Sequence record: NC_048136.1
Length of the DNA stretch: 39,793 nucleotides
DNA from: Escherichia phage Ro45lw
Strand: one strand, 5' to 3'
Shown: positions 14,539 to 39,028 of the stretch, one piece after another
Layout of the letters: every line of letters starts with the position of its first letter
How positions within the stretch are numbered: position 1 is the stretch's first letter
Made by a program: the position numbers and the translations under genes
The notes under the pieces: model-generated
Told to the model about the DNA's origin: nothing
What the model saw: the letters and a program-made list of their open reading frames with translations, nothing else
The model's database searches: none

Positions 14539-15136
14539 TAACATCATGGTGCACATTAAATCTGGTGAACTCGGTGAACTCCTAATGGGACAATACCGAG
14601 CCAAGCCATAGGGAGGATGTATGAGAGGCAAGAAGTTAATTCTTGAGGCCACTGAGACTGGCTGCATAATCCCTACGTCACATAAATTGAATCAGGATGG
14701 ATACTTCCGAAAGAGGACTAACGGTGTCCTTGAGATGTATCATAGAACTGTATGGATTAAAGCTAATGGTCCAATACCTGACGGTTTCGAAGTAGACCAC
14801 AAGTGTCGTAATAGAGCTTGTTGCAACGTCGAACATCTACAAGTATTAGACCGGGACTCACACTTAGTCAAGACCAACCAAGAGCGATACGCTGCTAGGA
14901 AGCTAGAAGCACGAGACTACTGGGTAGAGACTGGGTGTACTGGAACGAAGTTAGCCGAAGTATTCAATGTGTCGTTCTCAGCCGCCTGTGGGTGGATTAG
15001 AGAGTGGAAGGCGTAGAGACTATCCGAAAGGAGTAGGGCCGTGGGTGAGATTCCCACGTAACCCGAAGCGCCAGACAGTCACCTCAAAGACTGATGATAT
15101 AGTCCGACACTTCCAGTAATGGGAGAATACAGAAAG
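14539..15136 (+). mobile_element. Putative group I intron (598 nt) carrying an HNH homing endonuclease gene
   Basis: Separates two segments that together encode an intact T7-like DNA polymerase; 5' exon ends in T, insert ends in G; P1 candidate 14533-14538/14549-14554; R-like AGAGACTA (15013-15020) and S-like GATATAGTCCGAC (15097-15109). Confidence 0.75.
14621..15016 (+). CDS. Intron-encoded HNH homing endonuclease, 131 aa
   Basis: RBS GGGAGG; HNH-type motif GPIPDGFEVDHKCRNRACCNVEHL; AGA/AGG/ATA-rich codon usage unlike neighbouring genes. Confidence 0.8.
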   Translation: MRGKKLILEATETGCIIPTSHKLNQDGYFRKRTNGVLEMYHRTVWIKANGPIPDGFEVDHKCRNRACCNVEHLQVLDRDSHLVKTNQERYAARKLEARDYWVETGCTGTKLAEVFNVSFSAACGWIREWKA

Positions 15137-15292
15137 GATGAGTTACAGATTGCTTGTCGTACTCAAGAAATAGCAGAACGTACAGTAGAAATTGCTCAAC
15201 TTGCTATGCGTAAGGTTGGTGAGTTCTATAACTTTAAATGTGTCCTTGATACCGAAGGTAAGATTGGACCAACTTGGAAGGAGTGTCACTAA
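15137..15292 (+). CDS. 5: DNA polymerase, exon 2 (C-terminal 51 aa)
   Basis: DELQIACRTQEIA...FKCVLDTEGKIGPTWKECH aligns with the T7 gp5 C-terminus DEIQVGCRTEEIA...FRCLLDTEGKMGPNWAICH. Confidence 0.8.
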   Translation, partial: DELQIACRTQEIAERTVEIAQLAMRKVGEFYNFKCVLDTEGKIGPTWKECH

Positions 15293-17772: not shown

Positions 17773-18016
17773 ATCCATTAGTAAAGCCTTTAAGAAAGTA
17801 GTAGGTGGTGCTCTGAACACCGTAGGTCTGGGACAATCAGCCCCTCAGCCTAAAGCTCAGGACGCTCAGGTAGCTGCTGCTCCGGTAGAAGTGCCTCAGG
17901 ACCAAGTGACTGACGTTGAGACTGATGTGACCGAGACCGATAAGAAGAAGGTCAAGTCAACTGGTAAGCGTGGACTTCAAGTCTCTCGTACCTCTGGTGG
18001 AGGCATCTCTATATGA
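17765..18016 (+). CDS. 7.3: gp7.3-like tail/host-range protein
   Basis: C-terminus GKRGLQVSRTSGGGISI matches T7 gp7.3 (SLSVARSSGGGINI); GTG start with RBS AAGGAG 8 nt upstream. Confidence 0.8.
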   Translation: MGKSISKAFKKVVGGALNTVGLGQSAPQPKAQDAQVAAAPVEVPQDQVTDVETDVTETDKKKVKSTGKRGLQVSRTSGGGISI

Positions 18017-18423
18017 CAGACTGCATACTACATAAGGGCTGCGTTAATAATTCTGGGTATGGCCTGAAGTGGTATGCCGGTAAGCTGCGGGGAGCACACG
18101 TAGTGTCATATCTCAAGAACAAGGGACCTATACCAGAAGGGCTAGTTGTGATGCACTCTTGTGACAACAGATTGTGCGTAAATCCAGAACACCTTAGTGT
18201 TGGGACCTACAGTGAGAACATGATAGACTGTGTTTCCAAGGGACGGAAGAACGCTCCGCATAGTGACAGCCACTACAACTCCAAGCTGAGCGCTGAAGAA
18301 GTTAAGTCCATACGCAAGTCAGGACTAACTGCTACAGAGCTTACAGCCATGTATCCTGGAGTGTCTAGGAGAACGCTGTCTGACGTATTAACAGGTAAAA
18401 CATGGAGGCACGTAGATGGCTGA
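18013..18423 (+). CDS. HNH endonuclease (free-standing, putative homing endonuclease), 136 aa
   Basis: SGYG...GPIPEGLVVMHSCDNRLCVNPEHL motif; paralogous to the ORF at 29244; AGG/AGA/ATA codons. Confidence 0.85.
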   Translation: MTDCILHKGCVNNSGYGLKWYAGKLRGAHVVSYLKNKGPIPEGLVVMHSCDNRLCVNPEHLSVGTYSENMIDCVSKGRKNAPHSDSHYNSKLSAEEVKSIRKSGLTATELTAMYPGVSRRTLSDVLTGKTWRHVDG

Positions 18424-25411: not shown

Positions 25412-25435
25412 CTAATTGAATGGCCTATAGTTTCA

Positions 25436-25458
25436 ACTTAACTATCACTATAGGGACT
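25436..25458 (+). promoter_or_regulatory. Phage-RNAP promoter (phi13-like)
   Basis: AACTTAACTATCACTATAGGGACT. Confidence 0.8.
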
Positions 25459-25497
25459 ATAGGCCCTTTAAGTTATAATACTTTAAGAGGAGACTTT

Positions 25498-25980
25498 ATG
25501 TATATTCGTAAAGCTACTGAACAGGATGTATTGTCCTTCGAAATTGCTATAGATGACGTTAATGAGCTGATGGCGAATGACCCACGGAGAGACCTTGAGT
25601 CTGTCCTACTATCTCACCTCACTCCGTCATCTGTGGTTTTGGTCGATGCGCTGGGGACAGTATACGCCTATGGTGGAAACCAAGGTGATAACGTCTGGTT
25701 CGTTACCTCCCGTCTTGTCTCAAGGCTTACCAGAGCAGAGAGACGTGAGTTCGTCCAGAGAATCGCTGAGTACAGAGACTTAAGGTTAGACCAGTATCCG
25801 GTCCTTTGGAATTACGTTTGGGAAGGGAACAGCAGTCACATTAGGTTCCTAAAGATTCTTGGGGCAGTGTTCCACGAAGAGTGGACCGAGAGTCCTGTTA
25901 CGGGAGAGAGGTTCCGGCTATTTACCATGTCAAGGAGTAATAATGAAAGTATGCGTAAGGTGCGGGGAGCTGAAGGATAG
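25498..25980 (+). CDS. gp13-like internal virion / assembly protein, 160 aa
   Basis: Position equivalent to T7 gene 13; ATG with RBS AGAGGAG; similarity to T7 gp13 is from memory only (LWNYVWEGN..HIRFLK..GAVFHEE). Confidence 0.6.
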   Translation: MYIRKATEQDVLSFEIAIDDVNELMANDPRRDLESVLLSHLTPSSVVLVDALGTVYAYGGNQGDNVWFVTSRLVSRLTRAERREFVQRIAEYRDLRLDQYPVLWNYVWEGNSSHIRFLKILGAVFHEEWTESPVTGERFRLFTMSRSNNESMRKVRGAEG

Positions 25981-26353
25981 TTCCCTGTTTTATAGGTGTA
26001 AAGCTCGAAAGGACGGGCTGGGGTCATACTGCAAGGCTTGTCACGACGCTAAGTCTGCTGGCACCAAGTATAACTATGAGCTTAAAAGGAGAGATGTTCT
26101 CCGTAAGAAGTATGGAATGACACTAGAGTCTTACGAAGCACTTCTTGCGAAACAAGACTCTGAATGTGCCATATGCGGACTTGATGTTAAAAACCACAGA
26201 AGGGCGCTTAATGTAGACCACTGCCACAACACTGGGCAGGTAAGAGGGCTACTCTGCGACGACTGTAACATTGCCCTAGGTAAGTTCAAGGATAACATCC
26301 AGTCTATACTTAAGGCTGCTGAGTATCTGGCTAGAAGCCGGAAGGAGGATTAG
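25943..26353 (+). CDS. Endonuclease VII-like nuclease (putative homing endonuclease), 136 aa
   Basis: CxxC...CxxC N-terminus and ECAICG...LNVDHCHNTGQVRGLLCDDCNIALG, typical of the endonuclease VII family; RBS AAGGAG; overlaps the gene 13 3' end by 38 nt. Confidence 0.75.
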   Translation: MKVCVRCGELKDSSLFYRCKARKDGLGSYCKACHDAKSAGTKYNYELKRRDVLRKKYGMTLESYEALLAKQDSECAICGLDVKNHRRALNVDHCHNTGQVRGLLCDDCNIALGKFKDNIQSILKAAEYLARSRKED

Positions 26354-26380: not shown

Positions 26381-26944
26381 ATGGGTATTATGGCTGTAGC
26401 CGGGGCCGCTATGTCCGCTTCAAGTCAGGCCAAAGCCGAAGGTGCAGCGATTGACGCTCAGAACCGACAGGCTCAGGAAATGATTAAGCAGATGAACTAC
26501 TCTGACGCCAACCTGAAGATGCAGGAGCGAGACCTTAAGGAACAGCAGGTCGCTGAGCTGACCGAGACGACTCTGAATGGTATCCGCAATCAGGGAATGG
26601 TCCGTGCAGCAGTGGCTGAGTCCGGTCTGGAAGGAAACTCCATTAACCGCATTGAGCGCTCAGTGGAAGGCGACACCGTGAAAGAACGTGCTGGCATCAC
26701 CGAAAGTTACAACCGAGATTATGCGGCTATCTTCGGGAACCGTATTGCCAACATTGAGAACACCAAGTCTGTCATCAAGGGTCAGGCCAAAATCATCAAG
26801 ACCAGCCCTCTGGCTCACGCACTTAACGTCACCTCTGCTGGTGTGCAGGGTTACGCTATGGGTAGCTCTATCTCTGGCGCTAAGCCGTCTGGCGGTGCTG
26901 CCCCAATCAGTGCTGCTAAAGGCACACCTACAGGTCATAGCTAA
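26381..26944 (+). CDS. 14: Internal virion protein gp14-like
   Basis: Ala/Gln-rich N-terminus, NYxDANLxxQER, SxNRIxR, C-terminal AAKGTPTG resemble T7 gp14. Confidence 0.8.
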   Translation: MGIMAVAGAAMSASSQAKAEGAAIDAQNRQAQEMIKQMNYSDANLKMQERDLKEQQVAELTETTLNGIRNQGMVRAAVAESGLEGNSINRIERSVEGDTVKERAGITESYNRDYAAIFGNRIANIENTKSVIKGQAKIIKTSPLAHALNVTSAGVQGYAMGSSISGAKPSGGAAPISAAKGTPTGHS

Positions 26945-26955
26945 CAGGAGGACCA

Positions 26956-29238
26956 ATGGCTAGTAATATCGAATCAGCTTTAGCTAACCGGACTATGGGC
27001 CGTGGTCGCGCTCCGGGTAAAGCTATCAGTGTCGACTACCAGGCGGCTAGCGTTCAGGGGCAGACTGGGGACTCCGGTCTTGCCCGTGCGCTCACTAACT
27101 TCGTTGAGTCGGGTACAGGTCTGTACAAGCAGTTCCAAGAGAAGGCCAAGAACCTTGGGGATGAGAGGTCTAACGAGATTATTCGTAAGCTGACTCCCCA
27201 GCAAAGGCGTGAGGCCATCCAGAACGGCACTCTGCTGTATCAGGACGACCCATACGCAATGGAGGCACTGAAGGTCAAGACTGGACGAAACGCTGCCTAT
27301 GCGGTAGACGATGAGATTAACGTCAAGATTCAGAACGGTGAGTTCCGCACCCGTCAGGATATGGAGGAGTATCGCCACCAGCGACTTCAGGATGCCGCTA
27401 AGTCCTACGCTGATGAGGCTGGTATTAATCCTAACGATGAGCACTTCCAGCGTGGATTTAACGCAGACATCACGGACCGTAACGTAGCCATCTATGGGTC
27501 GTTCAATAAGTATTTCTCTAAGCAGTCCGAGAATACTGCTATGCTGAACACCCGTGTAGAGCTGAACTCGTTCCTGAATGATGGGGACCTGATGCGCTCA
27601 CCTGAGGCAGGCAAGTCTTTCATGGCGTACCTTCGCGATGGGCTGACCACTGCCGCCATTCCGTCTGACCAGAGAGCGACTGAAGTTATCTCTCAGACGG
27701 TACGGGACGCAATCCAGAAGTCTGGTGGGGCTAACTTCCTACAGCAGATTCGACAAGAGCGCATCACCCTTAACGGAGTGGACGCCACAGTCGAGGAGCT
27801 TGTCGGGCCGGAGGTCTTCAACGCCGCTCTGATTGAGGCCCAAGGAACCGAGTACAAGCTGGTGGCTAAGTATCAGGAAGACCTAGCGTTGGGAGTTCAG
27901 TCTGCCCTGCTTCAGGATGACCCGACTATTGGTCTGGCTCAAATCCAGAAACTCAAGGCTCAGAACAACCAGCTCCAGCCGGGTGAGGAGATGACACCAC
28001 AGCGTCAGATGCTCATCAATGCTGAGGCCAGTCTCTTAGAGACCGTGAAGCGCAAGTCCGCTGAGCAGGCCAAGGAGAACGTTAAGCTCATCCAGACGCA
28101 GAACAAGCAACTGGTCATCGACCAAGTGTATCAGAGACGACTGGCTGGGGACAACGTGTCCACCAACTATGAGGACCTTCCGGTATCTGAGGCTACTGGT
28201 GAGTTTAAGCGTTCGGACATGAACAACTACGCTATGGGTAAACTACAGCAGATTGACCAGATGGACATCCCGCAAGCTGCGAAGGATGCACAGAAAGTCG
28301 CCCTGCTGCGAGCTGATACCAATAACGGTCCATTCCGTAACGCCTACCAGACGTTGACTCAGGACGCTGCTGGTGAGTGGCAAGCTGCGGTCATCCGTGG
28401 TCAGTACGACCCAGACAAGATGCAACGCTTTGAGTCCCTGCGCCGGGCGTACACTCAGGACCCTTCCAGCTTTGCGGCCCTCTACCCTGACCAAGCCCAA
28501 CTGTTCACCACGTTCGACCAGATGGACAAGATGGGTCTGGACCCTCAGACGATGATTGACGCTGACAAACAGGCTGCTAGTCAGTCCCGTGAGATGCGCA
28601 TTGAGTCCGACAAGGCGTGGCAGGAGCTGAAGAACGACTCGAAGAACAAGGACCTCTCGCGTCTGCCGACGAGTCTGGACGCCAGTGCTCGTAAGGTCTG
28701 GGACTCTTGGTACTACCGCACAGGTAACGCTGATGCAGCTACCCAGAACACCCAGAAGTGGTTGAACGAGAACACCGTGACTTTCAGTGATGAGGGTCAG
28801 GACGGGAAGTCCATTGGCATGGTCTCCAAGCATCAACTGATGGTCGGGGACAACCCTGAGTCATGGCAGGTGGGTCGAGACATTATCGACACCGCTCGTC
28901 AGCAGCTCATCAAGACTAACCCTTGGGTCGTGAACTCTCAGCTCTCCGTGGTTGAGCAGAACGGCTCGGTCTTCCTCCAAGACGCTACCGGGACTATACG
29001 AATCAAGTATGATAAGGAAGTCGTTGGTAAACTGTACCGTGAACAGCAGAAGAAAGCTGAGGATAAAGCCTACGCTGAGGCCGAACGTAAAGCCAACACC
29101 CGCGCTCGTATTGTCGAGACTAAAGCGGCTGGTGATAAGCGGCGGAATGAGCGAGAAGCTAATGTCCGTGACCGGGGCGGTATGTACAAAGACGTCTCAC
29201 TGGAGGGTATCGCAAACGTACTAATCGGTAAGGAGTAA
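26956..29238 (+). CDS. 15: Internal virion protein gp15-like
   Basis: LGDERSNEIIRKLTPQQRREAIQNGTLLYQDDPYAMEALKVKTGRNAAY is nearly identical to T7 gp15; collinear throughout. Confidence 0.9.
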   Translation: MASNIESALANRTMGRGRAPGKAISVDYQAASVQGQTGDSGLARALTNFVESGTGLYKQFQEKAKNLGDERSNEIIRKLTPQQRREAIQNGTLLYQDDPYAMEALKVKTGRNAAYAVDDEINVKIQNGEFRTRQDMEEYRHQRLQDAAKSYADEAGINPNDEHFQRGFNADITDRNVAIYGSFNKYFSKQSENTAMLNTRVELNSFLNDGDLMRSPEAGKSFMAYLRDGLTTAAIPSDQRATEVISQTVRDAIQKSGGANFLQQIRQERITLNGVDATVEELVGPEVFNAALIEAQGTEYKLVAKYQEDLALGVQSALLQDDPTIGLAQIQKLKAQNNQLQPGEEMTPQRQMLINAEASLLETVKRKSAEQAKENVKLIQTQNKQLVIDQVYQRRLAGDNVSTNYEDLPVSEATGEFKRSDMNNYAMGKLQQIDQMDIPQAAKDAQKVALLRADTNNGPFRNAYQTLTQDAAGEWQAAVIRGQYDPDKMQRFESLRRAYTQDPSSFAALYPDQAQLFTTFDQMDKMGLDPQTMIDADKQAASQSREMRIESDKAWQELKNDSKNKDLSRLPTSLDASARKVWDSWYYRTGNADAATQNTQKWLNENTVTFSDEGQDGKSIGMVSKHQLMVGDNPESWQVGRDIIDTARQQLIKTNPWVVNSQLSVVEQNGSVFLQDATGTIRIKYDKEVVGKLYREQQKKAEDKAYAEAERKANTRARIVETKAAGDKRRNEREANVRDRGGMYKDVSLEGIANVLIGKE

Positions 29239-29243
29239 TAACA

Positions 29244-29693
29244 ATGAAGAACGGAACAGCCAGTGAGAGACTGGCACGTCTTTCGACTGTAGAAGTAACT
29301 GGCTGTGTCCGATTCACTGGAGGACTCAACAGTAGTGGTTATGGAAACCTATGGGTCGATGGTAAGACAGTTGGAGCGCATCGTGTTGCCTATGAGTTAG
29401 CGAACGGTCCGATACCTAAGGGTAGCGTACTTCGTCACACTTGTGACAACAGGTACTGCGTGAATCCTGAACATTTAGTCTTGGGAACACATCGTGAAAA
29501 CATGGAGGATATGACCAAGCGAGGCCGTCAGGCGAGAGGCTCTAAGATCAGCACGTGTGTGCTGTCCGAGGAGGACGTAAGGTCTATACGCTCAAGTGAT
29601 AAAAGTGGTGTGGAACTGGCACAGATTTTCGGAATCTCACCAGTAACTATTAGTCGAATCAAGAGGAGATTAACATGGCAGCACGTGGAGTGA
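29244..29693 (+). CDS. HNH endonuclease (free-standing, putative homing endonuclease), 149 aa
   Basis: SGYG...GPIPKGSVLRHTCDNRYCVNPEHL; paralog of the 18013 ORF; RBS AAGGAG; sits between genes 15 and 16, where T7 has no gene. Confidence 0.85.
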   Translation: MKNGTASERLARLSTVEVTGCVRFTGGLNSSGYGNLWVDGKTVGAHRVAYELANGPIPKGSVLRHTCDNRYCVNPEHLVLGTHRENMEDMTKRGRQARGSKISTCVLSEEDVRSIRSSDKSGVELAQIFGISPVTISRIKRRLTWQHVE

Positions 29694-32600
29694 GAAATAA
29701 TAACATAGGAAATATCCGCATCTCTAAAGACCAGTGGGAAGGTGCTACCGGGGACGATGGTGCTTTCGTAACCTTCGATAGTCCTGACTCCGGTGTCCGC
29801 GCTCTGGCGAAGAACCTGATGTCTTATGGTAGGCAGGGCTACGACTCTATCGAGAAGATTATCAACCGTTGGGCACCCCCGAACGAGAACGACACAAAGT
29901 CCTACATCGACTCGGTGGTATCCGCTACTGGCATCCCTGCGACCCAAAGTCTCGACCTGTCCAACCCTGATGTCTTGGCCTCTCTGTCTGAGGCTATCGG
30001 CTACCATGAGACTGGCTCCCGGTATGATCCTGAAGTCTATAAGACTGGAGTCTCTCGCGCCTTAAGCGGTGCGGGAGGAATCACCCCAAAGACTCCACCA
30101 GTAAGCGCTAACGTCTTCGACGCACTGACGGAGGGACTGAAAGCTAAGCCTAAAGTCTCCCTCGGTGAGAACCTTCCGGGCGTTACTGGTATGAACATTG
30201 AAGGTCAAGCGCCGGAGGCACCCAATGAGTCCTTCGGTGAGATGTTCTATAAGTCCACTGGCGAAACGCTGGACCAACGAGAGGACCGCTCTACTTGGTT
30301 CGGCTTTGGAGGAGCTGCTGAGGCCGAGGTGAAGAACTCACTGTTAGGCGTGGCTGTCCGCGCTGGTCAGACCGAGGACTCGCTGGATGTGATTGGCGAT
30401 GTGTTTAACCCTACCCGCTGGAATGACCACAAGTGGTCCCGCGAGGAGTTAGACCAGATTCGTAACGCTGGGGTATTACCTCAGTATTACGGAGTCATCA
30501 CAGGCGGTTCACCTCAGAACCTGACCGAGCTTATTAACTTGGCGCTGGAGAACCAGAAGTTAGACGCTGAGAAGGCTAAGGCCGGGACTGGCGCTCAACT
30601 GGCGGCTGGTGTGATTGGAGCTGGTGTAGACCCTCTGACTTACGTCCCGGTAGCAGGTCAGGTAGGTAAAGGAGGCAAGCTGGTAAACAAGATGTTCACG
30701 GTGGCTGCACAATCTGGCGCTCTTGCTGGTGGGTCTGAACTGCTGCGTACCTCGGTCGCGGGCGGCGATGCTCACGTTGCTGAAGCTGTAATGGGTGGCG
30801 CTCTGTTCGCTGGTGGGATGACTGCCATAGCTGATGGCATCGGCAAGGCCTTAGGTCGCTCCACCAATGAGTTCGCCGGACCTGCTACTCGACTGGAAGC
30901 CCGTGAGACTGCCCGTAATGTTGACGGTCAGGACCTTTCCCGTCTGCCAATCCGCGAGGGCGAGGAGACCTTCAGTCACCAAGGCGTTAAGTTCGCTGAC
31001 GTACCGAACGAGCCGGGAAGTGTTCGACTGGAAGATGGTTCAATCCTGATTGGCGAGAACCCACTGAACCCTAAGACACGTCAAGTCTTTGACGAGGTGA
31101 TTGAGCCTGAACGTGCTGCTGCTGGTATCAACCTTGGTGGACTCACTGAGATTGGCCTGAAGCTCCTGAGGTCTGAGAACCCTGAGATTCGCGGACTTGC
31201 CGCTGACTTGGTGCGCTCACCTACAGGTATGCAGTCCGGTGCCTCCGGTAAGATTGGTACTACGGCTTCAGACGTATTCGAGAGACTTCGTGCAGTGGAT
31301 CATCGGTTCTACAACGACATCGACGATGCGGTGACTGAGGCCCTGAAGGACCCATACTTCCAGACCAACTTCAACCGTGACACTGGTGCTTTCCGTCAGG
31401 ACATCTACCAGCGTGTGGCTCTGGCTATCGAGGACGGAAGCGGGAACCTGAAGTCTGAGCTGACTCCGGGCGAACTGAAGGTATATGACCTGCTGAAGAA
31501 CCAGTTTGACGCTAAGCGTGAGATGATGGAGAACCCTGCGATGTTTGGTCGGGTGGACGCTAAGTCTATCTTCCCCGGTAGCCGATTCAAGGGTACTTAC
31601 GTACCTCACGTTTATAGCAACCAGATGAAGCAACTGTTTATCAAGGAGCTGGGAAGTCCTGAGGCGCTACAGGAGGCAATCAAGAAGTCGTGGCTCACCA
31701 GCTATGCGTCAAGACCTGAGGTCAAAGCGCGGGTGGATGAGGCCCTGATGGAAGCAGACCCTAACCTTACTCCAGAAGGACTTTCTGCTGCGGTGGATAA
31801 GTACGCCAATGATAAGGCTTACGGTATCTCTCACACCGACCTCTTCGAGCGCTCATCTGTCATGGAAGAGAACATCAACGGTCTGGTGGGTCTGGAGAAC
31901 AACAACTTCCTTGAGGCCCGTAACCTGTTCGATAGCGATATGTCTATAATCCTGCCAAACGGTCAGCCGTTCAGTGTGAACAGCCTCCGCGAGTGGGACA
32001 TGGATAAGATTGTTCCGGCGTACAACCGTCGAGTCAATGGGGACATTGCTATCATGGCTGGGACCGGGAAGACTACGAAGGAGATGAAGGACGCAGTAGA
32101 GACCCTGATGAACCGTGCGGGTGATGACGGTAAGCTGAAGGGTGAAGTCTCTACATTGCGTGACACCCTGAAGATTCTGACTGGTCGTGCTCGACGTGAT
32201 GGTGCGGACGATGCTGCTTGGAACACTGTGTTGAGGACCATGACGGACTTATCGTTCTTCGCTAAGAATGCCTACATGGGTGTACAGAACCTTACTGAGA
32301 TTGGCGGGATGCTGGCTCGTGGTAACGTCCGTGCGCTGCTGCATGGAGTCCCGATGTTCCGTGACCTAGCCTTCCGTAACAAGAAGGTAGGGGCCTCAGA
32401 GATTAAGGACCTGCACAATGTCATCTTCGGTAAGGAACTGGACGACTCAATCCGTCCGTCCAAACAGGATGTCATCGACCGTCTGCGAGCTTATAGTGAC
32501 CTGAGTAAACCTGTGGCTACTGCTTTAGGTTCCGCCAAGTATTACACTGGCGAGCTTGCAGTCCGCTCCCCGTTTACGAAAGTCCTGAACGGGACGACGA

Positions 32601-33571
32601 ACTATCTGCTGGATGCTGGGCGTCAGGGCTTCTTGTCTGACATCGTGGAACACAGCCTGACCGGAAGTAAGCGTAAGTTTGATGACCGCTGGTTGAAGAC
32701 CGCTGGTATCTCAGACGAACAGTGGAAGGGCATTAAGTCCCTCATCCGTGAGTCCGTGACTCGTGGTCCAGACGGGAAGTACACCATCAAGGACAAGAAG
32801 GCGTTTAGTCAGGACCCAAGGTCTATGGACCTCTGGCGTATGGGTGACACCATCGCTGACGAGACACTTCTCCGTCCGCACAAGCTGAGCAACATGGATG
32901 CCAAGGCGTATGGACCTCTGGCGAAGACTGTCTTGCAGTTTAAGAACTTCGTCATCAAGTCCATCAACGGTCGAACCATGCGTACCTTCTACAACGCCAC
33001 CAAGAACAACCGAGCGATGGACGCTGCACTGTCAACGGTTATGTCTATGGGTCTGGCTGGAATGTACTACATGGCTCAGGCGCACATCAAGGCTTACTCT
33101 ATGCAGGACGGTCGTGACCGCGAGTACCTCAAGCAGGCCTTGAACCCGACTATGATTGGCTATGCGGCCCTGTCCCGTAGCTCCCACCTCGGTGGACCTC
33201 TTGGGGTAGCCAACATTCTGGGTGGCATCGCTGGGTATGAGGACACTAAGATGCTCCGCTCGTCTATCCTTCCGCGCTCACCTACCGAGAAGCCTGAACG
33301 TGCCATTACTTATGGTGCTGCCAAGAGCGACCCGGTGATGGGACTGGTGGGTAACTTCCTTGAGCAGGTTCCAGCTTTCGGCTACGCTGCTAACGTTGGC
33401 GCTTCGGCTTACAACTTGGCTGGCTACCTCAAGGCTGACACCCGTGTGAACGAACGAGACTACATGACCGGGATGTATAACACCTTCCGTGAACTGGTTC
33501 CGAACGACCCAATAACTCAGAAGCTCCTACTGGGAACATTTGAGGAACAGGGCATTCACATTAAGGACTAA
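29675..33571 (+). CDS. 16: Internal virion protein gp16-like (ejectosome core protein) with non-T7 N-terminal domain
   Basis: From about aa 133 (GGITPK...STWFGFGGAAEAEV...RLEARETARN...GTYVPHVY...RPEVKARVDE) collinear with T7 gp16; the first ~130 aa lack the T7 transglycosylase motifs. Confidence 0.9.
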   Translation: MAARGVRNNNIGNIRISKDQWEGATGDDGAFVTFDSPDSGVRALAKNLMSYGRQGYDSIEKIINRWAPPNENDTKSYIDSVVSATGIPATQSLDLSNPDVLASLSEAIGYHETGSRYDPEVYKTGVSRALSGAGGITPKTPPVSANVFDALTEGLKAKPKVSLGENLPGVTGMNIEGQAPEAPNESFGEMFYKSTGETLDQREDRSTWFGFGGAAEAEVKNSLLGVAVRAGQTEDSLDVIGDVFNPTRWNDHKWSREELDQIRNAGVLPQYYGVITGGSPQNLTELINLALENQKLDAEKAKAGTGAQLAAGVIGAGVDPLTYVPVAGQVGKGGKLVNKMFTVAAQSGALAGGSELLRTSVAGGDAHVAEAVMGGALFAGGMTAIADGIGKALGRSTNEFAGPATRLEARETARNVDGQDLSRLPIREGEETFSHQGVKFADVPNEPGSVRLEDGSILIGENPLNPKTRQVFDEVIEPERAAAGINLGGLTEIGLKLLRSENPEIRGLAADLVRSPTGMQSGASGKIGTTASDVFERLRAVDHRFYNDIDDAVTEALKDPYFQTNFNRDTGAFRQDIYQRVALAIEDGSGNLKSELTPGELKVYDLLKNQFDAKREMMENPAMFGRVDAKSIFPGSRFKGTYVPHVYSNQMKQLFIKELGSPEALQEAIKKSWLTSYASRPEVKARVDEALMEADPNLTPEGLSAAVDKYANDKAYGISHTDLFERSSVMEENINGLVGLENNNFLEARNLFDSDMSIILPNGQPFSVNSLREWDMDKIVPAYNRRVNGDIAIMAGTGKTTKEMKDAVETLMNRAGDDGKLKGEVSTLRDTLKILTGRARRDGADDAAWNTVLRTMTDLSFFAKNAYMGVQNLTEIGGMLARGNVRALLHGVPMFRDLAFRNKKVGASEIKDLHNVIFGKELDDSIRPSKQDVIDRLRAYSDLSKPVATALGSAKYYTGELAVRSPFTKVLNGTTNYLLDAGRQGFLSDIVEHSLTGSKRKFDDRWLKTAGISDEQWKGIKSLIRESVTRGPDGKYTIKDKKAFSQDPRSMDLWRMGDTIADETLLRPHKLSNMDAKAYGPLAKTVLQFKNFVIKSINGRTMRTFYNATKNNRAMDAALSTVMSMGLAGMYYMAQAHIKAYSMQDGRDREYLKQALNPTMIGYAALSRSSHLGGPLGVANILGGIAGYEDTKMLRSSILPRSPTEKPERAITYGAAKSDPVMGLVGNFLEQVPAFGYAANVGASAYNLAGYLKADTRVNERDYMTGMYNTFRELVPNDPITQKLLLGTFEEQGIHIKD

Positions 33572-33636: not shown

Positions 33637-35646
33637 ATGGCTAACTCTACGCTGACTAAGTTCCCGTCTGGTCGGGTTCAATATAAGATTAACTTCCCGT
33701 ACCTAGCCCGTGCGTTCGTTGTGGTCACGCTTGTGGTCTCTACGGACCCGACGAAAGACAAGGTGCTGGTCGTAGGGAATGACTATCGGTTCCTCAACGA
33801 GACAACCCTTGAGATTCTGGCAGACCAGACCGGATTCGATATCATCCAGATTCACCGATTCACTTCGACAGAGCTGGTGGTAGACTTCCGTGATGGCTCG
33901 GTGCTGACTGCAAGCGACCTGTCCACAGCGGAGATTCAGGCCATCCATATTGCCGAAGAGGGTCGTGACCAGTCCATCAACCTAGCGTCCGGCTACACTG
34001 AGGAGGCCAAGAAGTACGCCGATGAAGCCAGTGATGCTCTGGAAGGCATTAAGGACATCGTTCAGGATGGGAACTTTGATACTACCTTGCGTCAGGACCT
34101 TCGTAGCGATACAGGCCTTTCCATGATTCACCGCAAGCTGCCGGACATTGGGGCTGTTAACGTTGGGATGGACGCCCTGTTCGGCAATATGCTCAACCCA
34201 GTAGACTTCGGGGCGGACCCGACTGGCAGTGTTGACTCTTACGCAGCTCTCCAGAAGTGGGCCGATGCATGTACTTCGCGTCCTTGGGCCTATGCGTTCA
34301 TCTCAGGCATCTTCAAGGTCAGCCAGCCAGTTACCTTCAGGAACATTAGAGGCATGACAATTTACGGACATTGCTACATCTACCCAACCTTTGACCAAGG
34401 GGACTACGTTGTGGGATTCTGCAACGGAGCAGGGCTACGTATTCACGGTCGGTTCGAGGTGTCTGGACAGAACAAGGTTAGCATTAAGACTGGTGTTAAG
34501 ATTTGGTCGGACATGAATCCTAACGGTTTCTCCTTCAGTTACTTCTATGGAATGTGTGTGTCCGATGCTAATCCGGGTATTACCCTTGGTGATACTCGAT
34601 ATGCTAACGCACTTCTCTCTGAGCTGTCCTTCATTGGTGGATATACCGTAGGAACCCCATGCTCAATTAAAGCTATCGGCACTCAATGCTACTTCAACGT
34701 GATTGGATTCGATGCGGTGACTGGGGGTGCTGGCGATTTAGCACAGGTAACGCCGTATACCTACCACCTTAAGGGTGCTCAGATGAAAGTCATTGGCGGA
34801 GAGATTCAGCATAATGATTCAATCGTGGGTGCTGCAATACTGTTGGAGCCTATCGTCGACCCTGTGCATGGCAACACCTATGGTAACGTTACAGTGGATC
34901 AGAGCCACTTTGAGGTTGCTAGTACGTGGGTTATGGTGGCAAACCTTGACGGAGTTCCTAACCCAATCAGCCACCGTTCGTCTGTGACGTTAATCGGACT
35001 TCACGGTTACCACAATCAGGATAATGGACCTGTGGTCTTGGTCCATGAGTCAGCTGATGATTATCGTGGCACAATCGTGACCCGTGACATCTCAATGTAC
35101 CGTGGAGACGATTCACCGGACCGTGTGAACATGAACATTCAGGCCCGCAACGCTTACGTCGATTATGACCGCAAGGGATTCGGTAAAGGCTTCGTGAGAG
35201 GACTTCAGGCTGTTCAGGGTGGAGTACTTAAGTTCGAGAAGTCCACTATATGCATCGCTCAGAACTCAGTAGGTCAGACTCATACGACTGCACCTAACAA
35301 CGTTCTGTACACCCAGTTCATCGCCAATGGGGACACTGACCGCTGGTCTTCCAACTACAATCCTGCGACTGGTGAGTTTACTGTTCCGGCTGGTGGGCTA
35401 AAGGATGTTCATGTGGAGGCAACTGTGGAGGTCGCTAGTTCAAGTCAGGTGACTATGGCTGTCTACGTGGACAACGACCGTAAGAACCTCGTTCAGACCC
35501 TGCCTGTAGCTGGTAACACTTCTGCATATCTGGGTCACCTCCCAGCAGGGGCTAAGATTAGCGTTAAGTGTCAGCTAGGTACTGGCTCAGGTGCATCTAC
35601 TGGCGCAGGTCTTGACCGAATGGTCATCACCGCTTCAAACTATTAA
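33637..35646 (+). CDS. 17: Tail fibre / tailspike with T7-like N-terminal anchor and beta-helix (pectate-lyase-like) C-terminal region
   Basis: N-terminal ~150 aa align with T7 gp17 ([33 protein letters not shown]); downstream [24 protein letters not shown] resembles pectate-lyase-type depolymerase domains. Confidence 0.85.
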
Positions 35647-36218: not shown

Positions 36219-36656
36219 ATGCTCAAACTTTTACGACAGGCCGTCCCTTGGCTGGTGGCAGGACTCCTGTTCTGTTCTGGCTACTGGGTGGCAGACAATA
36301 AGTGGGAGGCGAAGGTAAACAATGAGTACATCACGAAACTTGAGGCACGAGAGAATCAACGGGCTGCTGTCCAAGGTGAAATCGACAAAGTGTCAGCAGA
36401 GTGGCAAGACAAGATGTCCGCGCTGGAAGGCTCTACTGATAGGATTATTGCTGACCTTAACCGCGATAACAAGCGGTTGCGCGTCAAAGTCAACACCTCA
36501 GGTCTCACCGAGCGAGATATCAGTCGATGCTTCCCTAATGGTAGAGTCGAACTACACCCAGAAACTTCTAAAAGTCTTATCCGAATAGCTCAGGAGGCAG
36601 ACCTTAAGGAGAAGGCGCTTCAAGACACAATAAGGAGGCTCCAAGGTGTTAAGTGA
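36219..36656 (+). CDS. 18.5: Rz-like i-spanin
   Basis: N-terminal transmembrane segment ([16 protein letters not shown]) then a charged coiled-coil region; RBS AAGGAGGG. Confidence 0.8.
36322..36588 (+). CDS. 18.7: Rz1-like o-spanin, embedded in Rz in a +1 frame
   Basis: Hydrophobic stretch [16 protein letters not shown] followed by Cys (lipobox-like) and a Pro/Ser-rich segment; start uncertain (ATG 36322 or GTG 36376). Confidence 0.5.
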   Translation: MSTSRNLRHERINGLLSKVKSTKCQQSGKTRCPRWKALLIGLLLTLTAITSGCASKSTPQVSPSEISVDASLMVESNYTQKLLKVLSE

Positions 36657-36709
36657 TTACTACATTAGAGGAGGCTATCTCTGTCCGGGACCTAATGCTG
36701 GAGGGCTCT

Positions 36710-38476
36710 ATGTCTAAGAAAACACCTGCTGAAAGACAGGCTGAAATGACCCAAAGGATGCGGGATGACTTCGTGTTCTTCATCTTCGTTCTCTGGAAAG
36801 CGCTGAGCCTTCCGGTTCCAACCAGATGTCAGATAGATATGTGTAAGAAGCTGGCTGCTGGCGATAACCGACGCTTCATCCTTCAGGCGTTCCGTGGTAT
36901 TGGCAAATCGTTTCTGACCTGTGGTTTCGTGGTCTGGAAGCTATGGAACAACCCAGACTTGAAGTTCATGATTGTGTCAGCCTCAAAGGAACGTGCTGAC
37001 GCGAACTCCATCTTCATCAAGCGAATCATTGACCTGATGCCTCAGCTCCAAGAGTTGAAGCCTAAGCAGGGGCAGCGAGATGCTGTTATCAGCTTCGACG
37101 TTGGGCCAGCCAAACCAGACCACTCACCCTCGGTTAAGTCCGTTGGTATCACTGGTCAGTTGACTGGTAGTCGTGCTGACATCCTGATTGCCGATGACGT
37201 GGAGGTTCCAAACAACTCAGCGACTCAGGCTGCACGAGACCGTCTGTCAGAGCTTGTAAAAGAGTTCGATGCTATCCTGAAGCCGGGAGGTACAATCATC
37301 TATCTGGGCACTCCTCAGAACGAGATGACCCTGTATCGTGAGCTAGAAGGACGTGGGTACTCCACTACTATCTGGCCAGCTCGTTATCCGCGCGACAGGA
37401 AGGACTGGCAGTCTTACGGCGACCGTCTGGCTCCTATGCTTCAGGCAGAGCTTGAAGAGGACCCTGAGTCCTTCTACTGGCGTCCGACCGATGAGGTACG
37501 CTTCGATGATACGGACCTGAAGGAACGTGAGCTGTCATACGGTAAGGCTGGCTTCGCTCTACAGTTCATGCTTAACCCTAACCTGAGTGATGCAGAGAAG
37601 TACCCACTGAAGCTCCGTGACCTTATCGTAGCAGACTTGGACCCAGCGTCTAGCCCAATGGTCTACCAATGGTTGCCGAACCCTCAGAACAAGCGTGAGG
37701 ACGTTCCTAACGTTGGACTCATGGGTGACTCGTACCACACGTATCAGACTGTAGGTTCTGCCTTCAGTTCGTACACCCAGAAGATTCTGGTCATTGACCC
37801 TAGTGGTCGTGGTAAGGATGAAACTGGTTATGCGGTACTATACCAGCTCAACGGCTACATCTTCGCTATGGAAGTTGGTGGTATGCGTGGTGGGTATGAA
37901 GACTCTACGCTGGAAGCATTGGCTAAGATTGGTCGTAAGTGGAAGGTCAACGAATACGTCATTGAGGGTAACTTCGGTGATGGTATGTACCTTGAGCTAT
38001 TCAAGCCTGTAGCGGCCCGTATCCATCCTGCGGCTGTAACTGAAGTGAAGAGTAAGGGTCAGAAAGAACTCCGCATCTGTGACGTTCTGGAGCCTATCAT
38101 GGGGTCTCACAGACTTATCGTTAACGCTGCTGCTATCGTCCAAGATTACCAGTCAGCCTCTGATAAGGACGGTGTTCGTAACCCTATCTACTCTCTCTTC
38201 TACCAGATGACCCGTATCAGCCGTGAACGTGGGGCCTTGGCTCACGATGACCGACTTGATGCTCTGGCTATCGGTGTACAGTTCTTCGTAGAGTCTATGG
38301 CGAAGGATGCCGTAAAGGGACAGCGTGAAGTCACTGAGGAGTGGCTGGAGGAGCAGATGGAGGACCCACGGAAAGGCTTCAAGTCCATCGAGACTGACTA
38401 CTGGGACAATGGGGTCAGGGTCCAGTTCAATACAGATGATGACTTAGGCTTGGGGTCCTACGTACAATTTCATTAA
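36710..38476 (+). CDS. 19: Terminase large subunit
   Basis: [37 protein letters not shown] (Walker A), [55 protein letters not shown] match T7 gp19; ATG 36710 gives a T7-like N-terminal length, GTG 36653 is the alternative. Confidence 0.9.
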
Positions 38477-38485
38477 GGAGGTATA

Positions 38486-39028
38486 ATGGCAAAGGCGAAG
38501 GACATCGACAGGGTGTCCCTCTTTGACCACTACGCATACGTTGACGGACAGTTGGTGTGCAGGAAGCCTTATGGCAGCTCGAAGAAGACTCCGGGTGAGC
38601 CTATGGGCTTCTCTGTACACCCTTCCGGCTATGCGATAGTGAAAGTGCTCGGAAGTCGTTACAGGCGCTCTCGCATCATCTACAGTCTAGCTGTGGGTCG
38701 AATCCCGAATGGTATGCTGGTTGACCACATCAACGGTGACAGACTGGATGACAGGCCAGAGAACTACAGGCTGGTCACTGAGTTGGAGAACCGATGGAAC
38801 TCCGCAGGTGGCGAGTCTAATGGTCTCCCTAAGGGTATCAGCTTCTTCAAGCCAACCGGGAAGTATCGCGCTCAGTTGCGACTTCAGGGTAAGTGCTTCA
38901 CTAAGACTTCGGACTCCATAGAGGAGCTTGAGGTCTGGCTGGAGGACTTAAGGTCAGAGAAGCACAAAGAATACTCAGTAAGCCTACGGTCCCCTAAGCG
39001 TGATAGGACCCGTAGAAACCACAAGTAA
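38486..39028 (+). CDS. HNH endonuclease with AP2-like DNA-binding region (putative homing endonuclease), 180 aa
   Basis: GYAIVKV...RRSRIIYSLAVGRIPNGMLVDHINGDRLDDRPENYRLVTELEN is an HNH core; RBS AAGGAGG; AGG/AGA/ATA codons. Confidence 0.8.
   Translation: MAKAKDIDRVSLFDHYAYVDGQLVCRKPYGSSKKTPGEPMGFSVHPSGYAIVKVLGSRYRRSRIIYSLAVGRIPNGMLVDHINGDRLDDRPENYRLVTELENRWNSAGGESNGLPKGISFFKPTGKYRAQLRLQGKCFTKTSDSIEELEVWLEDLRSEKHKEYSVSLRSPKRDRTRRNHK

What the first reader, a model, noticed from the sequence alone, without database searches (positions are those of the whole stretch)
29244..29693. HNH endonuclease inserted between internal virion genes 15 and 16
Genes 15 and 16 are adjacent in T7. Here a 149-aa HNH ORF with its own RBS fills the junction and overlaps the gene 16 start by 19 nt. 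The insertion coincides with a gp16 N-terminus unlike T7's (separate finding), so the junction may have been remodelled by recombination.
Basis: partly seen in the sequence, partly recalled or inferred. Interest (0 to 1): 0.55.

Follow-up and report, generated by a model that had tools for sequence, protein, structure and literature searches.

The report
Mobile HNH nuclease gene between phage genes
A small selfish-type HNH nuclease gene sits exactly at the start of internal-virion gene 16 in this T7-like (Kayfunavirus) phage; the same insertion is already annotated in related phages, so it is an ordinary mobile gene and is not linked to the unusual front end of gp16.

Summary
ORF 29244-29693 (+, 149 aa) lies between gene 15 (ends 29238) and gene 16 (starts 29675) and overlaps gene 16 by 19 nt. 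It matches Pfam HNH_3 (E=2e-16), keeps the family-invariant His/Cys/Asn residues, and its confident model best matches I-HmuI.

The window is Escherichia phage vB_EcoP-Ro45lw (39,793 bp), where this ORF is "hypothetical protein Ro45lw_42". The same gene sits at the same junction in about 10-16% of Kayfunavirus records (GA2A, 96% aa; TM1, Pipis, CR44b "7.7C predicted homing endonuclease"). It is absent from the closest whole-genome relatives (Dev2, SH4, ESh23), where gene 16 starts 5 nt after gene 15.

The 431-bp insert takes over gene 16's original RBS and ATG. Its last codons supply a new RBS and ATG for gene 16.

That N-terminus (aa 1-119) is 93% identical in the HNH-less relative Dev2, and its coding DNA aligns throughout in the other HNH-less phages compared. 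Divergence is locally raised about 300 bp to the left and 700 bp to the right, which is consistent with co-conversion.

Verdict: a free-standing homing-endonuclease gene of a known kind, of low interest. One unexplained detail is an invariant 33-nt 5' element with a hairpin, shared by deeply diverged alleles.

The parts
26956..29238 (+). Gene 15 (internal virion protein C, 760 aa). Its last codons GGT AAG GAG TAA contain the Shine-Dalgarno sequence used by the next gene.
   Evidence: ORF list. Annotated homologues in Pipis, SFP21B, CR44b, Dev2 and SH4. Ro45lw table entry ORF_41, 26,956-29,238.
29230..29235 (+). Shine-Dalgarno AAGGAG, 8 nt before the HNH ATG. The identical sequence is gene 16's RBS in HNH-less relatives.
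   Evidence: Sequence. Junction alignments.
29244..29693 (+). Free-standing HNH (HNH_3) homing-endonuclease-type gene, 149 aa (Ro45lw_42).
   Evidence: Pfam HNH_3 E=2.3e-16. PHROG HNH families. Exact match to 'hypothetical protein Ro45lw_42'. AlphaFold model pLDDT 91.4, best PDB fold match I-HmuI 1u3e. Group-A dN/dS 0.03-0.10.
29244..29674 (+). The 431-bp segment absent from HNH-less relatives. The boundary is ambiguous by the shared ATG, so it can equally be written 29247-29677.
   Evidence: Alignment of HNH+ and HNH- junctions. Match spans of about 1590-1600 bp versus 1170 bp in database hits.
29244..29276 (+). Near-invariant 33-nt 5' element of all junction HNH alleles. It includes a perfect 6-bp stem / 5-nt loop hairpin, GCCAGTGAGAGACTGGC, at 29259-29275.
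   Evidence: The hairpin is identical in 18 of 18 junction HNH genes, although the gene bodies differ at 45-47% of nucleotides. The element occurs in 22 database records, all at this junction. It is unique in the window. Its function is not established: fold z-score -0.18 and no Rfam hit.
29373..29504 (+). HNH_3 catalytic core (aa 44-87), with family-invariant H46, H65, C67, C72, H77, G81 and N86.
   Evidence: Pfam match coordinates. Invariant columns in a 50-sequence alignment.
29559..29669 (+). C-terminal three-helix (helix-turn-helix-like) putative DNA-binding module, about aa 106-142.
   Evidence: Model helices H109-117, H122-129 and H133-140. PHROG 517 'HTH DNA binding protein' at aa 106-142. 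An HTH is annotated in the CR44b orthologue.
29663..29668 (+). New Shine-Dalgarno GAGGAG for gene 16, formed by the HNH codons AAG AGG AGA (K-R-R), 6 nt before gene 16's ATG.
   Evidence: Sequence. Conserved in all HNH+ alleles. Annotated as an RBS in Pipis.
29675..29693 (+). 19-nt dual-coding overlap. It encodes the HNH C-terminus W-Q-H-V-E-stop (preceded by Thr, whose codon ACA supplies the A of gene 16's ATG) in one frame and gene 16's M-A-A-R-G-V in another. It carries the substitutions that separate all HNH+ from all HNH- genomes.
   Evidence: The TWxHV motif is conserved across the family.
29675..33571 (+). Gene 16 (internal virion protein D, 1298 aa). Residues 1-119 (29675-30031) form a non-T7 peptidoglycan-hydrolase-like domain. 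The rest is 54% identical to T7 gp16.
   Evidence: BLASTP against T7 gp16. PDB sequence hits 9vvp_L Gp29 (E=1e-109) and endolysin 7q47 (E=1.4e-11). PHROG 873. 93% identity to HNH-less Dev2.
28950..30400 (+). Tract of raised divergence from the nearest backbone relatives, surrounding the HNH gene. It is a candidate co-conversion tract.
   Evidence: 100-bp-bin identities. Mismatch rates and permutation test. No database phage exceeds 89% identity in either flank.

Best explanation
This is a free-standing HNH homing-endonuclease gene (HEG) of the I-HmuI / T7 gp7.7 type, sitting at the start codon of internal-virion gene 16.

Shown:
- The gene is polymorphic. It is present in a minority of Kayfunavirus genomes and absent from the window's closest relatives, always at exactly this junction.
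- It reuses gene 16's native SD and ATG for itself.
- Its last codons (K-R-R-L-T-W = AAG AGG AGA TTA ACA TGG) provide a replacement SD (GAGGAG) and ATG for gene 16. The essential downstream gene therefore stays translatable.
- The first 19 nt of gene 16 are recoded so that they also encode the nuclease's conserved C-terminal TWxHV motif and its stop codon.
- No phage promoter lies nearby, so the gene is read on the late phi13-to-gene-16 transcript.

Inferred:
- During mixed infection the enzyme nicks or cuts HNH-less genomes at or near the intact junction sequence (...GGTAAGGAGTAATAACAATGGCGACTCGTGGTATTCGC...).
- Repair from the HNH+ genome then copies the gene, plus a few hundred bp of flanks, into the recipient (intronless homing).
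- The insertion, together with the recoded gene-16 start, protects the carrier from its own enzyme.
- The invariant hairpin just after the start codon may throttle translation of the nuclease.
For: Family:
- Pfam HNH_3 at E=2e-16.
- Invariant H46, H65, C67, C72, H77 and N86 across 50 homologues.
- AlphaFold model pLDDT 91.4. The top PDB fold hit is I-HmuI 1u3e, probability 1.00, 152 aligned columns.
- 45% identity to the window's own gene-7.7-position HNH and 49.6% to T7 gp7.7.

Presence/absence at one site:
- 7 of 44 sampled records with both flanks matched carry the insert.
- 22 records (20 phages) carry its 5' element, all at the 15/16 junction.
- The closest whole-genome relatives ESh23, Dev2 and SH4/SH5 (about 90% nt) lack it.

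Allele and backbone disagree:
- The other group-A alleles examined with enough flank to judge sit in GA2A-like backbones, which are 74-85% identical to the window in gene 15.
- The window's backbone is Dev2-like, at 94-100% identity.

Junction anatomy.

Local divergence tract.

Life-cycle signs:
- Strong purifying selection in group A: dN/dS 0.03-0.10 at dS of about 0.63.
- Frameshifted alleles at the same junction in other lineages: P0052 in at least 24 contigs and P0045 in 4.

Transcription: no phage promoter or terminator in or near the gene. The nearest promoter-like sites are at 25436 and 33567.

Existing annotation: orthologues are already called homing endonucleases (CR44b '7.7C predicted homing endonuclease'; TM1 'HNH homing endonuclease').
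Against: - No cleavage activity, target site or mobility has been demonstrated for this protein or for any junction orthologue that I could find.
- I-HmuI-type enzymes nick rather than make double-strand breaks, and they can cut both alleles. The 'cut the empty site' step is therefore only by analogy.
- The window's HNH is about 11% diverged in nucleotides (dS about 0.63) from every other group-A allele. No donor with matching flanks is in the databases, so a recent homing event cannot be shown.
- The divergent tract is one of several patches in genes 15-16. Others lie at 28200-28500, 30600-30900 and 32200-32500, and its significance is modest (p of about 0.013).
- Strong purifying selection could instead reflect a benefit to the phage.
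Confidence: 0.8

Rival explanations
1. The HNH protein is kept mainly because it benefits the phage, and homing is secondary or lost. Possible benefits are anti-defence by binding DNA ends, or exclusion of competing phages.
For: - Very low dN/dS (0.03-0.10) over substantial synonymous divergence (dS about 0.63) in group A.
- A 2025 preprint reports that phage HNH homing endonucleases, including catalytically dead T7 gp3.8, attenuate the GAPS4 defence.
- The same preprint reports that T7 lacking genes 2.8, 3.8 and 7.7 is outcompeted in the presence of GAPS4 (bioRxiv 10.1101/2025.09.07.674715).
- T7 gp7.7 is about 50% identical to this protein.
Against: - Only about 10-16% of relatives carry the gene.
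- Frameshifted copies persist in many contigs.
- The closest relatives do without it.
- The effect of gp7.7 alone was not tested in the preprint.
- Purifying selection is also expected for an actively homing element.
Confidence: 0.12
2. One reading: the HNH insertion and the non-T7 gp16 N-terminus arrived together in one recombination event that remodelled the 15/16 junction.
For: - The two features are adjacent, and gp16 aa 1-119 really are unrelated to T7's SLT domain.
- Divergence is locally raised around the HNH gene.
Against: - HNH-less Dev2 has a gp16 N-terminus 93% identical in protein to the window's.
- In SH4, ESh23, SFP21B and Pisces, also HNH-less, the N-terminus-coding DNA aligns throughout.
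- That DNA matches about 200 Kayfunavirus-like records at roughly 76-87% identity, most of which lack the HNH gene.
- HNH-less junctions are 95-100% identical to one another across the site.
Confidence: 0.03
3. The gene was inherited vertically from an HNH+ ancestor of the clade, and most lineages then lost it. The patchy distribution would then reflect loss rather than homing gains.
For: - Three deeply diverged allele groups (dS saturated) all occupy the same site with the same ends. This implies long residence at this junction.
- Decaying alleles exist.
Against: - The empty sites are seamless and identical to each other. Simple deletion is unlikely to produce this unless by recombination with an empty allele.
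- The window's allele group and its backbone clade disagree.
- Gain and loss are both parts of the normal homing cycle, so this is less a rival than the other half of the same process.
Confidence: 0.05

Closest known systems
Orthologous junction HNH genes in other Kayfunavirus genomes: GA2A_46 ('endonuclease' in RefSeq), TM1 'HNH homing endonuclease', Pipis 'HNH nuclease', CR44b gene 7.7C 'predicted homing endonuclease'.
   Same: - Same site between genes 15 and 16, and the same length (149 aa).
- Same 33-nt 5' element.
- Same 3' SD/ATG overlap with gene 16.
- 91-97% aa identity for group A and 54-58% for the CR44b group.
   Different: - The window's allele sits in a Dev2-like backbone rather than a GA2A-like one.
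- It differs at about 11% of nucleotides from the nearest alleles.
- In the published Ro45lw record it is labelled only 'hypothetical protein'.
T7 gp7.7 and gp2.8 (predicted HNH homing endonucleases), and the window's own gene-7.7-position paralogue (18013-18423).
   Same: - HNH_3 core followed by a C-terminal helical module ending in TWxHV.
- 45-50% identity.
- The paralogue is also wedged immediately upstream of an essential gene (portal gene 8), overlaps its start, and supplies an SD from its Trp-Arg codons.
   Different: - Different genomic site.
- The 7.7-type proteins lack the 17-residue N-terminal extension, and therefore the invariant 5' element.
I-HmuI (PDB 1U3E), the intron-encoded HNH nicking homing endonuclease of Bacillus phage SPO1.
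   Same: Best structural match to the model over essentially its full length. Both have an N-terminal beta region, an HNH beta-beta-alpha-metal core and a C-terminal helix-turn-helix.
   Different: - Only 18% sequence identity and TM about 0.4. The domains are probably arranged differently in the DNA-free model.
- I-HmuI is intron-encoded, whereas this gene is free-standing between genes.
- No sequence-level PDB hit was found.
Free-standing homing endonuclease genes of T-even phages (the seg and mob genes), which spread by intronless homing. This comparison is from established knowledge. Gibb & Edgell 2007 on mobE regulation is cited in PMC8861465.
   Same: - Intergenic insertion next to essential genes.
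- Presence/absence polymorphism among relatives.
- Co-conversion of flanking markers.
- Expression limited by RNA hairpins.
   Different: - Different phage family and gene neighbourhood.
- The hairpin here lies downstream of the start codon and does not cover the RBS.
- No experimental data exist for this element.

Membership tests
HNH (His-Me finger) nuclease, Pfam HNH_3 / I-HmuI-like | Significant match to the HNH_3 profile, above the curated cut-off | tested here: met
   59.6 bits against a cut-off of 24.8, E=2.3e-16, aa 44-87.
HNH (His-Me finger) nuclease, Pfam HNH_3 / I-HmuI-like | Catalytic and metal- or zinc-binding residues retained | tested here: met
   C21, H46, H65, C67, C72, H77 and N86 are invariant in a 50-member alignment and present in the window protein. 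Assigning individual residues to catalytic roles is by analogy only.
HNH (His-Me finger) nuclease, Pfam HNH_3 / I-HmuI-like | Beta-beta-alpha-metal fold with an attached DNA-binding module | tested here: met
   Model pLDDT 91.4. Foldseek top hit I-HmuI 1u3e (probability 1.00, E=1.6e-3), followed by I-PpoI. TM is only about 0.4.
Free-standing homing endonuclease gene (mobile by intronless homing) | Presence/absence polymorphism at a fixed site among closely related genomes, with a seamless empty site | tested here: met
Free-standing homing endonuclease gene (mobile by intronless homing) | Element phylogeny incongruent with the backbone, and flanking co-conversion tracts | tested here: inconclusive
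   A group-A allele in a Dev2-like backbone and raised flank divergence (p of about 0.013) point that way. However, no donor is known and other divergent patches exist nearby.
Free-standing homing endonuclease gene (mobile by intronless homing) | The enzyme cleaves or nicks the HEG-less allele near the insertion site | not testable with these tools
   Needs an in vitro cleavage assay on the Dev2/SH4-type junction.
Free-standing homing endonuclease gene (mobile by intronless homing) | Super-Mendelian inheritance in mixed infection | not testable with these tools
   Needs phage crosses.
Terminase-associated HNH (HK97 gp74-like packaging factor) | Encoded next to the terminase genes and the cos site, and conserved in all relatives | tested here: not met
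   It lies between genes 15 and 16, about 7 kb from the large terminase gene (about 36653-38476), and most relatives lack it.

The most novel reading that the evidence does not exclude
The two conserved ends of this HEG may be functional nucleotide-level modules of a site-adapted cassette.
- The 5' end is an invariant 33-nt element carrying the hairpin GCCAGTGAGAGACTGGC at +16 to +32.
- The 3' end is a portable SD+ATG built from the K-R-R-x-T-W codons.
- The hairpin would throttle nuclease translation after the HEG takes over gene 16's strong initiation site.
- The 3' module would restore gene 16 expression.
- Together they would let very different HNH bodies (three allele groups, synonymous sites saturated) turn over at one site without harming the essential ejectosome gene.
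Probability: 0.25. Interest if true: 0.4.

Novelty: already known. Interest (0 to 1): 0.15.

Why it matters
Mostly this is an annotation fix. Ro45lw_42, published as a hypothetical protein, can be named an HNH homing-endonuclease-type gene. The non-T7 gp16 N-terminus should be treated as a separate trait shared with the HNH-less relatives compared here.

For phage-therapy candidates such as Ro45lw, such genes flag sites where related phages exchange DNA.

The junction is also a compact natural example of how a selfish gene can enter a 5-nt intergenic gap without silencing the essential gene downstream. It takes the old RBS and start codon and brings a replacement in its own last codons. The presence of three diverged alleles plus decaying copies gives a small system for studying homing-gene turnover in T7-like phages.

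Tried and rejected
- Sequence search of the HNH protein against PDB chains found nothing meaningful. The relationship to I-HmuI came only from fold comparison.
- IMG/VR scans with the protein, with an alignment, and with the 21-nt hairpin motif returned only GA2A and CR44b at this junction, plus distant HNH genes elsewhere. They added no new junction examples.
- The hairpin as a thermodynamically exceptional RNA structure is not supported: z-score -0.18 against shuffles, no Rfam family within 29000-29900, and no covariation because the stem never varies.
- There is no intrinsic-terminator-like site and no phage promoter within 28900-30000. The one sigma-70-like match is on the minus strand and is no more than chance.
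- The search for a donor lineage failed. No phage record exceeds 89% identity in either flank. The Logan contigs carrying 96-97%-identical proteins have GA2A-like flanks, not window-like ones.
- The ESh23 record's annotation is unreliable (marked UNVERIFIED, with feature coordinates inconsistent with the match). Only its sequence was used.
- The minus-strand ORFs overlapping the region (29159-29329 and 29528-30007) were taken to be by-products of the plus-strand genes. They were not examined further.

Full report
**Identity of the window.** The window is the complete genome of Escherichia phage vB_EcoP-Ro45lw.
- The published description gives a 39,793-bp genome with ORF_41 at 26,956-29,238 and ORF_43 at 29,675-33,571, exactly the coordinates found here (PMC9866566).
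- The 149-aa product is an exact match to 'hypothetical protein Ro45lw_42'.
- That paper's table of functionally annotated ORFs omits ORF_42.
- The phage belongs to Kayfunavirus (Studiervirinae, T7-like). Its closest whole-genome relatives in the phage collection are ESh23, Dev2 and SH4/SH5, at about 90% nucleotide identity.

**Observation.**
- ORF 29244-29693 (+, 149 aa) lies between gene 15 (stop at 29236-29238) and gene 16 (ATG at 29675). It overlaps gene 16 by 19 nt.
- AAGGAG at 29230-29235 lies 8 nt upstream of its ATG.
- The protein matches Pfam HNH_3 at E=2.3e-16 and several PHROG HNH families.
- In T7, genes 15 and 16 are neighbours with a 26-nt spacer.
- gp16 residues 120-1298 align to T7 gp16 residues 144-1315 at 54% identity. 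Residues 1-119 have no T7 counterpart.
- Those first residues instead match a solved endolysin (7q47, E=1.4e-11), the N-terminus of a solved 1295-aa 'Gp29' (9vvp_L, E=1e-109) and PHROG 873 'endolysin'.

**What the insertion looks like.**
- HNH-less relatives (Dev2, SH4, SFP21B) read ...ATCGGTAAGGAGTAATAACA|ATGGCGACTCGTGGTATTCGC..., so gene 16 starts 5 nt after gene 15. ESh23 is identical across the junction in the alignment, and Pisces differs at two spacer bases.
- The window reads ...ATCGGTAAGGAGTAATAACA|ATGAAGAACGG...(HNH)...AAGAGGAGATTAAC|ATGGCAGCACGTGGAGTGAGA...
- The extra DNA is 431 bp (29244-29674, or equivalently 29247-29677).
- The HNH gene therefore starts on what is otherwise gene 16's own RBS and ATG.
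- Gene 16 receives a new RBS (GAGGAG, 29663-29668) and ATG, made from the nuclease's own codons K-R-R-L-T-W.
- The nuclease's family-conserved C-terminal motif TWxHV and its stop codon are encoded in the first 19 nt of gene 16 in another frame.
- The only substitutions that separate every HNH+ genome from every HNH-less genome lie in this overlap: ACT to GCA/ACA, and ATTCGC to GTGAGA/ATAAGA/GTAAGG.
- In the empty site, the same register reads Q-W-R-L-V-V with no stop within the 60 nt downstream that I read by eye. The native gene-16 start (ATGGCGACTCGTGG) already resembles one coding of W-R-H-V (CR44b: ATGGCGACACGTGG).
- I infer that this microhomology helped the original insertion. This is not shown.
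- The window's gene-7.7-position paralogue is built on the same principle against gene 8.

**What the protein is.**
- In an alignment of 50 diverse homologues, C21, Y33, H46, H65, C67, C72, H77, G81 and N86 are invariant, and all are present here.
- The AlphaFold model is confident (pLDDT 91.4).
- Its best match among solved structures is the HNH homing endonuclease I-HmuI (1u3e, probability 1.00, 152 aligned columns), followed by I-PpoI.
- The C-terminal three helices match an HTH DNA-binding PHROG. The CR44b orthologue has an HTH annotated at the same place.
- The protein is 45% identical to the window's own HNH at the gene-7.7 position and about 50% identical to T7 gp7.7.
- The genome holds four HNH_3 ORFs (14621, 18013, 29244, 38486) plus an endonuclease VII ORF. 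A nuclease gene between structural genes is therefore normal for this phage.

**Distribution.**
- 218 phage records match the junction region.
- In an evenly spaced sample of these, 44 rows had both flanks joined. Seven of them had the long span (HNH present) and 37 the short span.
- The 5' end of the gene occurs in 22 records (20 phages), always at this junction.
- Several records already annotate it as an HNH or homing endonuclease: CR44b '7.7C predicted homing endonuclease', TM1, Pipis, PH1061 and EPr2.
- The window's closest backbone relatives lack it.
- There are three allele groups, all 149 aa:
  - A: window, GA2A, TM1, Pipis and several about 40-kb assembled contigs, at 91-97% aa identity.
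  - B: CR44b-like, at 54-58% aa identity.
  - C: Ro103C3lw.
- Frameshifted copies with single-base deletions occupy the same junction in other contigs. P0052 is in at least 24 contigs and P0045 in 4.
- Within group A, dN/dS is 0.03-0.10 at dS of about 0.63, so the window's copy has been kept functional.

**Is the junction recombinationally remodelled?**
- Across gene 15 the window is 94-100% identical to Dev2 and ESh23. It is only 74-85% identical to GA2A-type genomes, which are where the other group-A alleles examined with enough flank to judge reside. Allele and backbone therefore have different affinities.
- Mismatch against Dev2:

| Region | Mismatch | Count |
|---|---|---|
| 26956-28950 | 5.1% | 102/1994 |
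| 28950-29243 | 16.0% | 47/294 |
| 29694-30400 | 13.9% | 98/706 |
| 30400-33571 | 9.6% | 304/3171 |

- HNH-less genomes stay 95-100% identical to one another across the same stretch.
- The run of nine consecutive low-identity 100-bp bins around the insert has permutation p of about 0.013.
- In Pipis, compared with SFP21B, the divergent patch is about 250 bp and lies only on the gene-16 side.
- This fits co-conversion of flanks during acquisition from an unsampled donor.
- The case is not conclusive. No record exceeds 89% identity in either flank, and genes 15-16 contain other short divergent patches.

- The non-T7 N-terminal domain of gp16 is 93% identical in HNH-less Dev2.
- Its coding DNA aligns throughout in the other HNH-less phages compared.
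- It matches about 200 related records, most of them without the HNH gene.
- The two observations are therefore independent. The raised divergence next to the HNH gene is exchange within the same N-terminal family.

**Mechanism.**
- Shown: family membership, intact motifs, site-specific presence/absence, the hand-over of translation signals, late-operon context with no phage promoter between 25436 and 33567, purifying selection, and decayed alleles elsewhere.
- Inferred from the well-studied behaviour of free-standing phage homing endonucleases (established knowledge; see also PMC10448857):
  - cleavage or nicking of the empty junction in co-infecting relatives;
  - repair-mediated copying of the gene with its flanks;
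  - self-immunity through the interrupted and recoded site.
- A benefit-to-phage role cannot be excluded. A 2025 preprint reports that phage HNH homing endonucleases blunt the GAPS4 defence, and that a T7 mutant lacking genes 2.8, 3.8 and 7.7 loses competitions when GAPS4 is present.

**Unexplained detail.**
- The first 33 nt of the ORF are essentially invariant in all 18 junction alleles examined, pseudogenes included. This stretch includes the perfect hairpin GCCAGTGAGAGACTGGC at 29259-29275.
- The gene bodies of the different allele groups differ at 45-47% of positions, with synonymous sites saturated. The binomial P against the body rate is about 1e-7.
- The last 30 nt or so are conserved too, but gene 16's RBS, ATG and the overlap explain that.
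- The hairpin is not thermodynamically exceptional, has no Rfam match, shows no covariation, and is unique in the genome.
- A translational throttle on the nuclease is a reasonable guess. So is homogenisation by gene conversion running in from the conserved end of gene 15. Neither was tested.

**Verdict.** This is a real but ordinary feature, already annotated in sister genomes.

Noticed in passing
window 25859-26353 (+), probable start 25943: An ORF with an Endonuclease VII domain (Pfam PF02945, E=1e-25; PHROG 2633) lies between gene 13 (25420-25980) and gene 14 (26381-26944). It is absent from GA2A, TM1, Dev2 and SH4. The adjacent 25500-25900 region is only 65-72% identical to those phages. 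It looks like a second mobile nuclease insertion with a divergent flank. F-CphI-type Endo VII homing endonucleases are described in PMC6083498.
   Followed up: partly
window 12523-14541, 14621-15016, 15119-15292 (+): An HNH_3 ORF (131 aa, E=9e-16) sits between two pieces annotated as DNA polymerase in the Ro45lw paper (ORF_21 and ORF_23). This suggests a split or intron-containing gene 5, as described for some T7-like phages. Splicing signals were not examined.
   Followed up: no
window 18013-18423 and 38486-39028 (+): There are two more HNH_3 ORFs. One is at the T7 gene-7.7 position; it overlaps gene 8's start by 8 nt and its Trp-Arg codons form gene 8's SD. The other lies just after the large terminase gene. 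The genome therefore carries four HNH_3 genes plus one Endo VII gene.
   Followed up: partly
window 29244-29276 (hairpin 29259-29275): The 33-nt 5' element with a perfect 6-bp hairpin is invariant across three deeply diverged allele groups and in frameshifted pseudogene alleles. The cause of this nucleotide-level conservation is unknown.
   Followed up: partly
window 29675-30031 (gp16 aa 1-119): The gp16 N-terminal domain is unrelated to T7's SLT lytic transglycosylase. It is homologous to a solved endolysin (7q47) and to PHROG 873, and is shared with the HNH-less relatives compared. It appears to be a swap of the cell-wall-hydrolase module relative to T7, independent of the HNH gene.
   Followed up: partly
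window 33637-35646 (gene 17 tail protein): From about 33700 the tail protein gene is 82-88% identical to GA2A (host E. coli O45) but only 44-66% identical to the backbone relatives Dev2, SH4 and ESh23. This is a host-range module exchange that fits Ro45lw's O45 host.
   Followed up: no
L007 (ESh23, ON528733.1): The record is flagged UNVERIFIED. Its feature table places gp15 and gp16 on the opposite strand and at coordinates that disagree with where the sequence actually matches, so the annotation cannot be trusted.
   Followed up: no
L069-L072 (ENA contigs of about 39 kb): These contigs carry frameshifted group-B-like HNH alleles at the 15/16 junction (single-base deletions near nt 270 or nt 375). 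They keep the 431-bp insert and gene 16's replacement RBS. One variant recurs in at least 24 contigs, so it is probably a real pseudogene rather than an assembly error.
   Followed up: partly
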